Of a stretch of DNA of 64,000 nucleotides, positions 30,001 through 33,000 are shown in pieces. Position 1 is the first letter of the stretch; every line of letters starts with the position of its first letter. Made by a program: the position numbers. The stretch covers positions 40,920,001-40,984,000 of the forward strand of contig CM069153.1 in the NCBI GenBank assembly GCA_035221665.1. Reading direction: 5' to 3'. Origin of the DNA: Okamejei kenojei (lineage: Eukaryota).

Positions 30001-33000
30001 TCCAAAACTTACTTGACTCGAGGTGAATTAATCAAGTGCCAAAATATTATTTGCTTAAAATTAGTAGAGCTAGGCAGATCCAAACCAATGTCAATGTGGA
30101 AACAATTTTCCCCTGACACATTTCAAAACAAGACAGCTGAAGACGACAGACAGAAATGTAGGGAGATGATAGATAGCTGTAAGGTTATAATGGTATGTGA
30201 TATCAACTTCCCTGATATCGCCAAGGACTGACATAATACAAAGGGTTAGGATGGGGTAGAATTTGGTAAATGTGTCCAGGAAGTGTTCTTAAAAAGTTTG
30301 CGACGGCCCTACTAAAGAGGTGACAACTTGACGAAATTCAACTAAAAAATGAAATTGGGATGTGACTCGTATGTCAATGGGTGAACACTGGGACATGTGA
30401 TGATAATAAGCGAGTTTGGTATTCCGACTGCACATGCTCAGGTCATAGGTCACTAGCTATAAAACAGTCTCGGCAATGGTGGTGCTGTATTGTGTGCAGG
30501 CTTGCGTTTTGTCTTCCTTTCCCCTCCCCATTGTCCCTTTGCAGCTGCTCTGCTTGGCAGCAGTCCTCCCACCACAACCACCACCCCCCCCCCGCAATCC
30601 TGCTGAAGATGGGCAGCCGCCGCCCTTGCTCGATGACGGGCGACTTGTAGCTGCTGCTGGAGTAGACCTGATCCGAGAGAGAGTCTGCGGATGGGCTCCT
30701 GCCGGCCACGGGCAGGCTGGGAGCCCACTGGAGCTGCTGGTGCTGTTGGTGGTGCTGGTGGTAGCAACAACCTTCTCCCCCTCCCTTGCTCGGCCCCAAG
30801 CCCAGAGTCTGGGCCAGCTCCAACTCCAGGTCGGGGCTGAAGCCGACCGCAGCGCAGCACAATCGAGCACCGGGCTGGAGGAGGCCGAGCCCAGGCTGGC
30901 GCTCTGGCGCAGGCGAGGCCGGGGCCCTCGCTCCTCCTCGGGGTTGTGGATGAAGTGGCAGCGGGTACTGTAGGGGCAGAAGCCAGTGGTGTGTAAGGTA
31001 CGGCTTGTACTTGGGGTGGCGGCTGAGGGAGCGCAGTTCAGACAGGCCATGGGCGAACTGGCACTTGTTGCTGTGGAGGCCTATCGGGAGCGGGTTTCTC
31101 TGGGGTTGGAGCGGGGTTGGGCTGGAGTTGGCTGTGGGTTCTGTGGGCCTGGGGCCGCTGGTGTTGTGGTCGGTTGGCCCGACGGGAGAGGCGGAGGTGA
31201 GCCTGGGTTGGTGCGTCTCCGCACTGGGCCTGGGGGCCAGGGCCAGTCCAGTGGCAGTTCTTCCCCCCCGACTCCCCCACTGAAAAAAGCCAAAAACTCG
31301 GACCCAAACTATACTCACTGAATCTACAGCACTTCGTTCGATTTTTATTTATAGTGTTCGACTTTTGATAAATACCATGATTCCTTGCTTTCGTCGGAAT
31401 AACAAACTCACTTATTCTATTAATTTAAAAATACTTGCGAGAAAAGATTGGGCTGGTCCACAGACTAAAATCCTAACCTAATCCTGGTCACACTGCTCTT
31501 TTCCCTGCCTCCATCTTGCATGTCAATTATTGTCTGTCAATTATTGTCTGTCCATTCCCTCCACAGATGCTGTGTAACCCGCTCAGCTCCTCCAAAATTT
31601 TATATTAGCTCTAGATTCCAGCATCTACAGTTTCTTGTATCTTCAGTACACCTTGGGCATTACGGTAACTCTTGTGTGCTTTTATCAGCCATGAACATCT
31701 TGCAATATCTGATCTCCAGCAACATTAATCAAAACTATAGAATTTTTTCATTTTACTGAGCACAATGCAAAAGGTGACGAGTGTCTTAAATTCAGATCAA
31801 GTGTGAGATAGCTGGTTCAATTCAAAATAAAGTAAAAGTACAGGTTGAACACTGATAGTCCGCCCACCCCAAAAATCCGGACAAAATTAGTTGAAATAAC
31901 AGAGCTTAGTTGAAATTTCCTGAGTGGAATTGCGAGTGGCGAGCACTCTTTCCAGTCATGTCCCTCCACCATGAAAGTGTTGTTTTGTTTACATCTAAAC
32001 GTGGAAATTCCTGCTTGGCACTGTCTAATTTCATCTCTGCTGGCTCATTGTTTAAGTTTCTCATGTTTCAACTGCCTGGCCTGCACGCACCACCCCACAA
32101 CCCCTCCTCCTACCTTTCTGTTCAATTTTCCTCTCGCCCTCTAAAACTCTCAACTTCCTGTCAAGCCTCCAGTTTACTGGGCATCTTTAAAAGGCTGCTT
32201 CTCAAAATCCCTTTTAAACTATGCTCTCAATCTTCTCTCCTAAATGTTTCGCAAAGATAAAACAGTAAACCATCGTTTTAACGACCCCCTTATAGAAGAT
32301 TTTAGATCTAGATTTAGAGCCGTGGCTCCGTGGTGTTTTAGAGGCATGGAAAATGAATCATTGTATTCTTGTTTCATTATCACATGGCCTCTTAATACAG
32401 AAAATCAGATAATCCAGAAAGGCTCTGGAACCAAGGCTGCCAGAAAATTGATGTTCTACATTTTTATCAGTGCTGCAACTGCAATCCATTTTGAATTCTA
32501 GGTCTGAGAGCTAGGTAGAAAATAATACTTATGAAGTCAGATGGCTATCTGGGTTTTAATGAAAGCCTTAAAGTAGAATGATTGCATCATGAAGGCTTGC
32601 TATCGTGGACTGAAATCGCCAATGCAAAACGGATATATTCAAATAGTAAATTTTGAATGAGGTTTGACCTTTTAAAAATATCTTAATATATCCCATGCAG
32701 CTATGTAAGGAGGGCAATTTTAGCTTTGATGCACACGTTCAGTTTTTTTTCATTAATTAATTAAAATATTGTAGGGTCATGATCAAATTAAAATTTGCTG
32801 AATAGTTTTGCAGGGTCTTCAGTATAGCTAGAATATTACTGCAGTACCAACGTATTAAAACTTTTCAACAAAGATTTATATAATCTTTCAAGACACTGAC
32901 AGCATTAAAAGAAAAACACTTAAATTGCCCCGGCAAAGAAGGCCATGGGCCCAATAATTGTAGACTGGATTCATAAAGACATTTGCCCATTGGGCAATGT

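What the first reader, a model, noticed from the sequence alone, without database searches (positions are those of the whole stretch)
30408..31413. Pack-TIR-like element: DNA transposon enclosing a ZFP36/tristetraprolin gene fragment
Seen: the ZFP36-family fragment (30593-31075, minus strand) has no poly(A) tail or 3' UTR. It lies between 21-bp TIRs (19/21) with an AT duplication, and removing the 1006-bp unit restores the CR1 relic it interrupts. Known: 2-bp AT TSDs with RR..YY ends fit the ISL2EU branch of PIF/Harbinger-like elements, and gene capture by TIR elements is common in plants but much less reported in vertebrates. Inference: a non-autonomous element captured ZFP36 coding sequence and may have spread it through the genome. 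The GC-rich block 31076-31290 may be a second captured piece. The captured region would come from the single large coding exon, so DNA versus RNA capture cannot be told apart here.
Basis: partly seen in the sequence, partly recalled or inferred. Interest (0 to 1): 0.85.

Follow-up and report, generated by a model that had tools for sequence, protein, structure and literature searches.

The report
Gene-carrying DNA transposon in a skate
A 1-kb cut-and-paste transposon sitting inside an old CR1 retroelement of a skate genome carries a broken piece of a tristetraprolin-type (ZFP36) gene, and the same stolen piece turns up at other places in a skate genome, so it is a real but decayed example of a transposon that picked up and copied host gene sequence.

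Summary
The arms 30405-30428 and 31393-31416 are 22/24 complementary; the TIR proper is 19/21. No such repeat arose in shuffles. Between them, on the minus strand, lies a ZFP36-type fragment (31075-30593). It runs from the middle of zinc finger 1 to 4 codons before the stop. It is 133/160 identical to skate ZFP36-like proteins and broken by two frameshifts. The flanks are one CR1 endonuclease relic. Two CR1 proteins align up to 30407 and resume at the next residue at 31416. So 1006 bp plus one AT were inserted as a unit at an AATT site. That is the published ISL2EU signature, TSD AT and target A|AT|T. PIF/Harbinger (TWA) and Tc1/mariner (TA) readings fit the CR1 less well but are not excluded. 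New here: two Leucoraja erinacea gene models on different chromosomes share the chimeric cargo. P0243 carries the GC-rich block joined to mid-finger-1 (0/500 shuffles). P0253 carries the fragment plus the region next to the left TIR (0/300). The cargo is therefore multi-copy. Whether those loci have the TIRs could not be tested, since no eukaryote genome DNA was searchable. Verdict: decayed Pack-TIR, a new member of a known kind.

The parts
30127..30407 (+). Left half of the interrupted CR1 endonuclease relic (stops and 4 frameshifts); ends with the ...DDN codons that correspond to the SDHN motif
   Evidence: P0132 aa 76-134 = 30127-30294, E 1.8e-10. Frameshift-tolerant alignment of 4 of 4 CR1 proteins ends at 30407 on the N of SDHN.
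30406..30407 (.). Left copy of the AT target-site duplication (preceded by A at 30405)
   Evidence: Sequence. Only the removal of 1008 bp keeps the CR1 reading register without a new gap or frameshift.
30408..30428 (+). Left terminal inverted repeat, 21 nt
   Evidence: 19/21 with the right TIR; 22/24 with the flanks; 0 expected by chance.
30429..30592 (-). Internal region between the left TIR and the ZFP36 fragment; origin unknown (transposon backbone or parental 3' sequence); begins with a G-run on the minus strand
   Evidence: Window 30513-30463 matches P0253 aa 224-240, score 56 against a shuffle maximum of 47, 0 of 300 shuffles. No Pfam hit.
30593..31075 (-). ZFP36/tristetraprolin-type coding fragment: second half of zinc finger 1, zinc finger 2, the C-terminal region up to RRLPIFSRI; lacks the last 4 codons and the stop; net 11 nt missing near 31000 and 1 nt near 30843
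   Evidence: tblastn P0003 aa 120-286, E 4e-48. 133/160 identical to P0259 and P0258, 131/160 to P0003. zf-CCCH E 2.6e-5. Frameshift positions.
31076..31290 (-). GC-rich block (GC 0.68) joined to the middle of zinc finger 1; part of the repeated cargo; source unknown
   Evidence: P0243 aa 16-86 = window 31271-31079, 39/63 identical, score 116 against shuffles 50.7 +/- 7.5, 0 of 500. Not significantly like ZFP36 N-termini. No family.
31291..31392 (.). AT-rich subterminal region next to the right TIR (GC 0.35); holds a 12/14 near-copy of the right terminus at 31313-31326
   Evidence: Composition; direct repeat D10.
31393..31413 (-). Right terminal inverted repeat, 21 nt
31414..31415 (.). Right copy of the AT target-site duplication (followed by T at 31416)
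31416..31475 (+). Continuation of the CR1 endonuclease relic, starting at the residue after SDHN
   Evidence: P0132 aa 174-192 and P0175 aa 242-261; tblastn E 0.04 and 0.003 in a 0.9-kb search space.

Best explanation
The unit 30408-31413 is a decayed, non-autonomous cut-and-paste DNA transposon of Pack-TIR type. Two 21-nt terminal inverted repeats and short subterminal stretches enclose a chimeric cargo. The cargo is a GC-rich block of unknown source fused to about 480 bp of the coding exon of the skate ZFP36 (tristetraprolin)-like gene.

Shown:
- The whole unit entered an AATT site in the endonuclease-coding part of a CR1 element and duplicated AT.
- The cargo derives from the roughly 290-300-aa skate ZFP36-like paralogue.
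- The same chimeric cargo exists at 2 or more other chromosomal loci in Leucoraja erinacea.

Inferred:
- The fusion arose once inside a non-autonomous element. The likely routes are those proposed for Pack-TIRs, namely template switching during repair or replication.
- It was then copied to new sites by a transposase supplied in trans. The AT TSD and A|AT|T target point to one of the ISL2EU group of the PHIS (PIF/Harbinger-like) superfamily.
- This copy is dead. Its zinc-finger reading frame is truncated and broken twice, and nothing suggests a function at this locus.
For: - The TIRs are far beyond chance.
- Exact break of the CR1 ORF: residue k ends at 30407 and residue k+1 starts at 31416 for 2 of 4 CR1 proteins aligned flank by flank. 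In the other 2 the left flank agreed and the right flank was not found.
- Among six ways of closing the site, removing 1008 bp scored best in 5 of 6 CR1 proteins and tied for best in 1.
- ISL2EU is described with TSD 5'-AT-3', target A|AT|T and TIRs of 6-259 bp (PMC4482050, passages). The empty site here reads AATT.
- Cargo identity.
- No poly(A) and no direct repeat around the cargo.
- Multi-copy cargo: P0243 (chromosome of 139.7 Mb) shares the GC block and the junction in mid-finger 1, 87/120 over window 31271-30907, 0 of 500 shuffles for the block alone. P0253 (chromosome of 88.0 Mb) aligns to 31084-30583 (115/158) and again to 30513-30463 (0 of 300 shuffles).
- The parent-like gene P0259 lies on a third chromosome of 12.4 Mb.
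- The copies share changes absent from 7 of 7 intact orthologues: D>N in the window and P0243, T>S in P0243 and P0253, F>L in the window and P0253.
Against: - No other copy of the TIR or the unit lies in the 64-kb window, and no eukaryotic genome DNA could be searched. It is therefore unknown whether the other two loci carry the TIRs, other TSDs, or cargo-free relatives.
- Only 2 further loci were found, and only through gene models. A search with P0243 listed 69 proteins, of which only P0243 itself covered the GC block.
- The shared substitutions conflict with one another as a tree.
- The TIR starts AA, whereas ISL2EU TIRs 'usually' start GG.
- No transposase, THAP or YqaJ domain was found in 93 window ORFs of 85 aa or more.
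- ISL2EU was reported absent from the one cartilaginous fish examined, the elephant shark (PMC9179366 and PMC4482050, passages).
- The palindromic context AATAAG...CTTATT also allows a TA or a TAA/TTA reading. The CR1 register prefers AT over TWA by only 4-5 score units and over TA by 4-10.
- In animals most Pack-TIRs are single-copy products of in-place gap filling (PMC8277862, sections 7-8).
Confidence: 0.62

Rival explanations
1. In-place gap filling. A cargo-free miniature TIR element inserted into the CR1. A later break inside it was repaired by copying from a ZFP36-derived pseudogene that already existed elsewhere, of the P0243/P0253 kind. On this view the window copy is a single-copy Pack-TIR, and the other loci are templates or unrelated duplicates, not transposed copies.
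For: This is the commonest origin of animal Pack-TIRs. Only 4 multicopy cases are reported among 370 (PMC8277862, section 7). TIRs at the other loci are unverified. P0253 keeps residues closer to the parent just upstream of the junction (GRYSD against parental CRYGD). It could therefore stem from a longer copy that is not a Pack element.
Against: Gap filling shows a strong bias for nearby templates: 56.9% lie within 15 kb (section 8). No other ZFP36-like sequence lies in the 64-kb window. The dispersal of one chimeric junction to different chromosomes still needs a copying mechanism, and the TIRs supply one. Homology with P0253 runs to within 35 bp of the left TIR, leaving little room for an original backbone.
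Confidence: 0.22
2. Same Pack-TIR, different superfamily. Either the element is a PIF/Harbinger (Tourist-like) element with a 3-bp TWA duplication (TIR from 30410, TAA left, TTA right), or it is a Tc1/mariner-type element with a TA duplication (TIR from 30409).
For: TA is present intact on both sides, and TAA/TTA are both TWA forms. PIF/Harbinger TIRs usually start with A or G. Harbinger/Tourist elements are reported as the commonest DNA transposons in a shark genome and are present in whale shark (PMC12498223 and PMC8455134, one passage each). A Tc1-like element lies in this window. With an alternative placement of an upstream frameshift, the TWA closure costs only 4-5 score units.
Against: TAA and TTA are not a direct repeat, so a mutation in the duplication must be assumed. 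The TA closure needs an extra frameshift exactly at the junction, 10 units worse in 4 of 6 CR1 proteins and 4-6 worse in the other 2. The AT reading needs no extra event and also explains the flanking A and T as the known A|AT|T target. From recall, not tested: the terminus does not resemble the usual CAGT/TACAGT start of Tc1-like ends, such as the one at 9168.
Confidence: 0.13
3. The cargo is a retrocopy (LINE-mediated processed pseudogene) of ZFP36 mRNA that landed inside a resident TIR element at this locus.
For: The fragment comes from the large coding exon, so the absence of introns says nothing. CR1 elements are abundant here.
Against: There is no poly(A), and the 3' end stops 4 codons short of the stop codon. 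No direct repeat brackets the cargo. The 5' end is fused to an unrelated GC-rich block, and that same fusion is present at another locus.
Confidence: 0.03
4. The inverted repeat is a chance match and the ZFP36 piece is an ordinary pseudogene fragment.
For: None beyond the fact that only one copy is visible in the window.
Against: 0 of 100 and 0 of 20 shuffles. The arms end exactly where the CR1 reading frame is broken.
Confidence: 0.01

Closest known systems
Pack-TIRs of animals (Tan et al. 2021, Nat Commun, PMC8277862; abstract and sections 7-8 read)
   Same: A TIR transposon with host-derived sequence between its ends, flanked by a TSD, with the parental gene elsewhere in the genome. A minority are multicopy and lie far from the parent on other chromosomes, as appears to be the case here.
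   Different: 87% of their 370 cases are hAT or TcMariner. The words PIF, Harbinger, ISL2EU and shark do not occur in the main text, and the supplementary tables could not be opened. Their set is 'young'; this copy is old and broken. Here the TE consensus and the parental DNA could not be examined, so their own identification criteria are only partly met.
ISL2EU group of the PHIS (PIF/Harbinger-ISL2EU-Spy) superfamily (Han et al. 2015, Mob DNA, PMC4482050; passages read)
   Same: AT duplication, the A|AT|T target (the empty site here is AATT), short TIRs within the 6-259 bp range, and purine-rich termini.
   Different: The TIR begins AA rather than the usual GG. No DDE/THAP transposase or YqaJ partner could be looked for in the genome. 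The group is described from 14 animal species and was reported absent from the elephant shark.
Pack-MULEs and other Pack-type elements of plants (recalled from general knowledge and from the introduction of PMC8277862; not tested)
   Same: Non-autonomous TIR elements that carry fragments of one or more host genes, often chimeric, and amplify them.
   Different: A different superfamily (Mutator, 9-10 bp TSD, long TIRs), a different kingdom, and far higher copy numbers.
ZFP36/TTP family proteins of skates (P0259 Leucoraja erinacea, P0258 Amblyraja radiata, P0003 Rhinoraja longicauda)
   Same: The cargo keeps the end of finger 1, finger 2 and the C-terminal RRLPIFSRI motif. Identity is 82-83% over 160 aligned residues.
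   Different: It lacks the N-terminal region, the first half of finger 1, the last 4 codons and the stop. Two frameshifts break it, and it has substitutions at positions invariant in the 7 intact orthologues compared.

Membership tests
Pack-TIR (TIR transposon carrying captured host sequence) | Terminal inverted repeats at both ends | tested here: met
   19/21 (22/24 with flanks); 0 expected by chance.
Pack-TIR (TIR transposon carrying captured host sequence) | Target-site duplication and a reconstructable empty site | tested here: met
   AT on both sides. Removing 1008 bp rejoins the CR1 endonuclease ORF residue to residue.
Pack-TIR (TIR transposon carrying captured host sequence) | Internal sequence derived from a host gene whose parental copy lies elsewhere | tested here: met
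   133/160 aa identity to skate ZFP36-like proteins. No other ZFP36-like sequence in the window.
Pack-TIR (TIR transposon carrying captured host sequence) | The ends belong to a recognisable TE family (cargo-free members or a consensus) | not testable with these tools
   No eukaryotic genome or repeat library is on hand. The window holds no second copy.
Pack-TIR (TIR transposon carrying captured host sequence) | Multicopy form: the same cargo between the same TIRs at several loci with different TSDs | tested here: inconclusive
   The same chimeric cargo is found in two L. erinacea gene models on other chromosomes. Their TIRs and TSDs could not be seen.
ISL2EU group (PHIS superfamily) | TSD 5'-AT-3' | tested here: met
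   30406-07 and 31414-15. This is the best closure of the CR1 ORF in 5 of 6 proteins and tied in 1. The margin over TWA is small (4-5 units).
ISL2EU group (PHIS superfamily) | Target A|AT|T (A before and T after the duplication) | tested here: met
   A at 30405 and T at 31416, so the empty site reads AATT. Criterion from PMC4482050.
ISL2EU group (PHIS superfamily) | TIR 6-259 bp whose first two nucleotides are usually GG | tested here: not met
   The length of 21 nt fits, but the first two nucleotides are AA. The paper says 'usually', so this is a soft criterion.
ISL2EU group (PHIS superfamily) | Autonomous partner encoding a DDE/HTH/THAP transposase and a YqaJ-domain protein | not testable with these tools
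   None among 93 window ORFs of 85 aa or more. The genome could not be searched.
PIF/Harbinger | 3-bp TWA target-site duplication | tested here: not met
   TAA on the left and TTA on the right are not a direct repeat. The closure scores 4-5 units below AT.
Tc1/mariner | TA target-site duplication | tested here: inconclusive
   TA is present on both sides, but this closure puts a frameshift exactly at the junction of the CR1 ORF (4-10 units worse).
Processed retrocopy | 3' poly(A), its own flanking direct repeats, and a complete 3' end of the mRNA | tested here: not met
   No A-run, the fragment ends 4 codons before the stop, and no direct repeat surrounds the cargo.
ZFP36/TTP family (as an intact gene) | Two tandem CCCH zinc fingers in one open reading frame | tested here: not met
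   Only the second half of finger 1 is present. Finger 2 gives a partial zf-CCCH hit, E 2.6e-5. There are two frameshifts.

The most novel reading that the evidence does not exclude
Skates once had, or still have, an active ISL2EU-type transposon family, a group so far reported among vertebrates only from teleosts. One non-autonomous member captured a tristetraprolin-type fragment and amplified it across chromosomes. Some copies are now annotated as protein-coding genes ('ZFP36L3-like', 147 aa, with one and a half zinc fingers; 'ZFP36-like', 243 aa). These could be expressed as new truncated RNA-binding or CCR4-NOT-binding proteins, comparable to the Ssk-FB4 family of flies.
Probability: 0.15. 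Interest if true: 0.7.

Novelty: new member of a known kind. Interest (0 to 1): 0.45.

Why it matters
Gene capture by TIR transposons is well known in plants. In animals it is documented mostly as single-copy accidents of hAT and Tc1/mariner elements. A multicopy case in a cartilaginous fish, with the insertion signature of a transposon group not yet reported there, would have three consequences:
- It would extend the known range of ISL2EU-like activity.
- It would add a rare animal example of capture followed by transposition.
- It would explain why a skate genome annotation contains short 'ZFP36-like' gene models that are probably transposon cargo rather than true paralogues.

At this locus the element is dead and has no evident effect.

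Tried and rejected
1. GC-rich block as the N-terminal part of the same ZFP36 exon. Frameshift-tolerant alignment of 7 ZFP36 N-termini to the block gave scores reached by 6, 9, 17, 22, 37, 40 and 87 of 100 shuffles. The plus strand against 4 whole proteins gave 2, 5, 11 and 38 of 100. The N-terminus of P0243 against 8 ZFP36 N-termini gave 31-479 of 500. Homology is not supported.

2. Naming the block: no Pfam hit, and ESM Atlas scores of at most 0.76, which is chance level.

3. Cargo's own TSD or tandem structure: only low-complexity repeats.

4. A second copy of the element, or a parental ZFP36 gene, inside the window: none.

5. A transposase in the window: 0 families in 86 ORFs.

6. Rfam and promoter/terminator scans of the element: nothing (the latter uses bacterial consensus patterns and is not informative here).

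7. Literature:
- 'Leucoraja erinacea' with 'Harbinger' gave 0 papers.
- 'ISL2EU' with 'shark' gave 2 papers, both reporting absence in elephant shark.
- One search was badly framed and gave nothing useful.

8. A list of short plus-strand ORFs made to look for upstream G-alpha exons was not used.

9. One search was an empty script.
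Full report
Source and scope. The window has no N. I take it for a skate (batoid) genome, not human, for two reasons. The best matches of the enclosed gene fragment are ZFP36-like proteins of Rhinoraja longicauda, Leucoraja erinacea and Amblyraja radiata. The flanks are CR1 relics of the kind found in cartilaginous fishes and birds. 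Copy counts of the element in its own genome therefore stayed unchecked.

The observation. The repeat finder reports one outstanding inverted repeat around the finding. Its arms are 30405-30428 and 31393-31416, 24 nt and 92% complementary. A degenerate 20-mer of the TIR occurs only at these two places in 64 kb at up to 3 mismatches. Expected by chance is 0.00, and 0 of 100 shuffles had two matches. In 20 dinucleotide-preserving shuffles of the whole window, no inverted repeat of 22/24 or better at 100-4000 bp spacing appeared. The real window has 18 such diagonals. They are explained by a poly-C/poly-G pair, inverted SINE-like copies, a Tc1-like element at 9168-10366, and this pair.

The cargo. 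On the minus strand, 31075-30593 matches skate ZFP36-like proteins (P0003 aa 120-286, E 4e-48). The match is spread over two reading frames in three segments. A frameshift-tolerant alignment gives the following picture.
- The fragment starts in the second half of zinc finger 1 (…KCQFAHG…).
- It loses a net 11 nt just after RHPKYK: two codons, one codon and 2 nt.
- It continues through zinc finger 2. Pfam zf-CCCH gives E 2.6e-5 on the frame that carries it.
- It loses 1 nt near 30843.
- It ends at RRLPIFSRI, 4 codons before the stop of the intact proteins, which end …ISVSD/E.

Identity to the intact proteins is 133/160 to L. erinacea P0259 and to A. radiata P0258, and 131/160 to R. longicauda P0003. 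It is 113/152 to sawfish and 53-63% to other rays and to sharks. The donor is therefore the roughly 290-300-aa skate ZFP36/TTP-type paralogue. After the 3' end comes a G-run, not an A-run. No direct repeat brackets the cargo.

The host site. The flanks are one CR1 endonuclease relic on the plus strand. A search with the open RT frame of another CR1 copy in the window (7413-8663, minus strand) returned full-length CR1 ORF2 proteins. P0132 aa 76-134 aligns to 30127-30294 (E 1.8e-10). Four such proteins were aligned to each flank separately with a frameshift-tolerant routine.
- All four reach 30407 exactly at the N of the conserved SDHN motif.
- For P0132 and P0175 the right flank starts at the very next residue at 31416 (aa 174-192 and 242-261).
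- For the two more distant proteins the right flank was not found on its own.

What was inserted is therefore 30408-31415: 1006 bp plus one AT.

Which duplication? The context AATAAG…CTTATT is palindromic. It can be read as AT (element 30408-31413), TA (30409-31412) or TAA/TTA (30410-31411). I closed the site in six ways and scored each against six CR1 proteins.
- The AT closure scored best in 5 of 6 proteins and tied in 1.
- The TA closure needs a frameshift exactly at the junction. It is 10 units worse in four proteins and 4 and 6 worse in two.
- The TWA closure is only 4-5 units worse, because an upstream frameshift can be placed differently.

Taken alone, the CR1 register favours AT only modestly over TWA. 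The TWA reading also needs a mutated duplication, since TAA against TTA is not a direct repeat. The AT reading needs no extra event. It also explains the flanking A and T. Han et al. 2015 (PMC4482050, passages read) describe ISL2EU elements with 5'-AT-3' duplications, a conserved A before and T after, target A|AT|T, and TIRs of 6-259 bp. The rebuilt site here reads AATT.

Three points count against the ISL2EU reading.
- Their TIRs 'usually' start GG, and this one starts AA.
- No DDE/THAP transposase or YqaJ protein is present among 93 window ORFs of 85 aa or more (7 scanned, 86).
- ISL2EU was reported absent from the elephant shark, the only cartilaginous fish examined (PMC4482050 and PMC9179366, passages).

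Harbinger-type elements, by contrast, are reported in sharks (PMC12498223 and PMC8455134, one passage each). I put the ISL2EU-type reading at about 0.7-0.75 and the other two together at about 0.13. The rest is left open.

The cargo is not unique. The whole-library HMMER search with the 301-aa frame that spans most of the element found 20 proteins at E 0.001 or better. Two of them match parts that are not ZFP36.

P0243 is XP_055505784.1, 'ZFP36L3-like', L. erinacea, 147 aa, on a 139.7-Mb chromosome.
- It aligns to window 31271-30907 with 87/120 identities.
- Its N-terminal 89 residues match the GC-rich block with score 116, against 50.7 +/- 7.5 in shuffles, and 0 of 500 shuffles reached it (39/63 identical).
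- It has the same junction of that block with the middle of zinc finger 1.
- It lacks the 11-nt loss.

P0253 is XP_055493223.1, 'ZFP36-like', L. erinacea, 243 aa, on an 88.0-Mb chromosome.
- It aligns to 31084-30583 (115/158), following the window's shifted frames.
- Its C-terminal end matches 30513-30463, only 35 bp from the left TIR. The score is 56, the shuffle maximum is 47, and 0 of 300 shuffles reached it.

The parent-like gene P0259 is on a third chromosome of 12.4 Mb. The copies share changes not seen in 7 of 7 intact orthologues: D>N in the window and P0243, T>S in P0243 and P0253, F>L in the window and P0253. These three do not agree on one tree. A further search with P0243 listed 69 proteins. 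Only P0243 itself covers the GC block, and P0253 is the only other skate-derived pseudogene-like model.

The chimeric cargo (GC block, truncated ZFP36, downstream stretch) therefore exists at two or more further loci on different chromosomes of a skate genome. It exists at three or more if the window is from the same species and is a separate locus. Whether these loci have the TIRs is the decisive open point.

The GC-rich block. It is part of the repeated cargo, but its origin is unknown. It is not significantly similar to ZFP36 N-terminal regions on either strand. It has no Pfam family and no Atlas lead above chance. So does parental non-coding DNA. The absence of poly(A) and the fusion at the 5' end argue against a simple retrocopy.

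Mechanism. Shown: one unit with TIRs was integrated into a CR1 with a 2-bp duplication, it contains host coding sequence, and the same cargo is dispersed. Inferred: the fusion arose once within a non-autonomous element. Tan et al. 2021 (PMC8277862, abstract and sections 7-8 read) propose template switching during gap repair for single-copy cases, and replication-fork switching followed by transposition for multicopy ones. The element would then have been moved in trans by a transposase recognising the TIRs. The main rival is in-place gap filling of a resident miniature element from a pre-existing pseudogene copy. That is the commonest route in animals: only 4 of 370 Pack-TIRs were multicopy. 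It is disfavoured here for three reasons. No template lies within the window. One chimeric junction is dispersed across chromosomes. Homology with another locus runs almost up to the TIR.

State of this copy. It is dead. The fragment is truncated at both ends and has two frameshifts. It carries substitutions at positions invariant in the intact proteins, and the TIR arms differ at 2 of 21 positions. CpG observed/expected in the cargo is 0.48-0.56, against 0.36-0.42 in the flanks.

Novelty. Pack-TIRs are known in animals: 370 in 100 genomes, 81 of them vertebrates, and 87% from hAT or TcMariner. This is a new member of a known kind. What is new is the apparent superfamily and the host lineage. 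The evidence for more than one copy is also new. A practical consequence is that the two short L. erinacea 'ZFP36-like' gene models are probably transposon cargo rather than true paralogues.

Noticed in passing
window 9168-10366: A Tc1/mariner-type element with long terminal inverted repeats (several 24-56-nt matching blocks). It contains a transposase DNA-binding fragment at 9570-9917 (HTH_Tnp_Tc3_2, E 1.3e-12). It lies directly upstream of the 5'-truncated CR1 copy.
   Followed up: partly
window 7413-9100, minus strand: A CR1 ORF2 remnant with a 417-aa open reverse-transcriptase frame (RVT_1, E 2.3e-28). It is 82% identical to an unnamed full-length CR1 protein (P0132) and about 50% identical to bird CR1 proteins. 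It looks comparatively young.
   Followed up: partly
window 41914-42483, plus strand: The last coding exon of a G-protein alpha subunit of the G12/13 type (Pfam G-alpha, E 4e-75; the subtype is my recall of the C-terminal sequence). The Pack-TIR lies about 10.5 kb upstream with its cargo in antisense, so it may be intronic.
   Followed up: no
window 31279-31319, minus strand: Splice-like signals in the right subterminal region: a GTGAGT about 40 nt upstream of a TTTTTTCAG that ends at 31280. Homology with the P0243 gene model starts just beyond this at 31271, and the first 15 residues of P0243 do not align. This could mark an exon boundary used in that model.
   Followed up: no
window 31313-31326 and 31406-31419: An internal 12/14 near-copy of the right terminus plus flank. 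It may be a subterminal binding-site repeat or chance (family D10).
   Followed up: no
window 50000-54000: The GC-richest stretch of the window (GC 0.49-0.54) with long open frames on both strands. These include a proline/serine/cysteine-rich repeat frame at 52779-53522. None has a Pfam hit.
   Followed up: no
window 19457-19529, minus strand: A full-length tRNA-like match (Rfam tRNA, 41.1 bits). It may be a tRNA gene or the head of a tRNA-derived SINE.
   Followed up: no
window 29735-29823, 5564-5652, 16000-16094, 18436-18637, 52808-52883 and others: Many copies of a roughly 90-bp repeat, 77-90% identical, some as an inverted pair 203 bp across at 18435-18637. This is probably a SINE or LINE-tail family common in this genome.
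   Followed up: no
proteins P0243 and P0253 (Leucoraja erinacea gene models): Both are annotated as ZFP36-family proteins but look like cargo of this element family. P0243 stops after zinc finger 2 and has an N-terminus with an internal duplication of a P/R/S-rich unit. P0253 follows shifted reading frames after zinc finger 2.
   Followed up: partly
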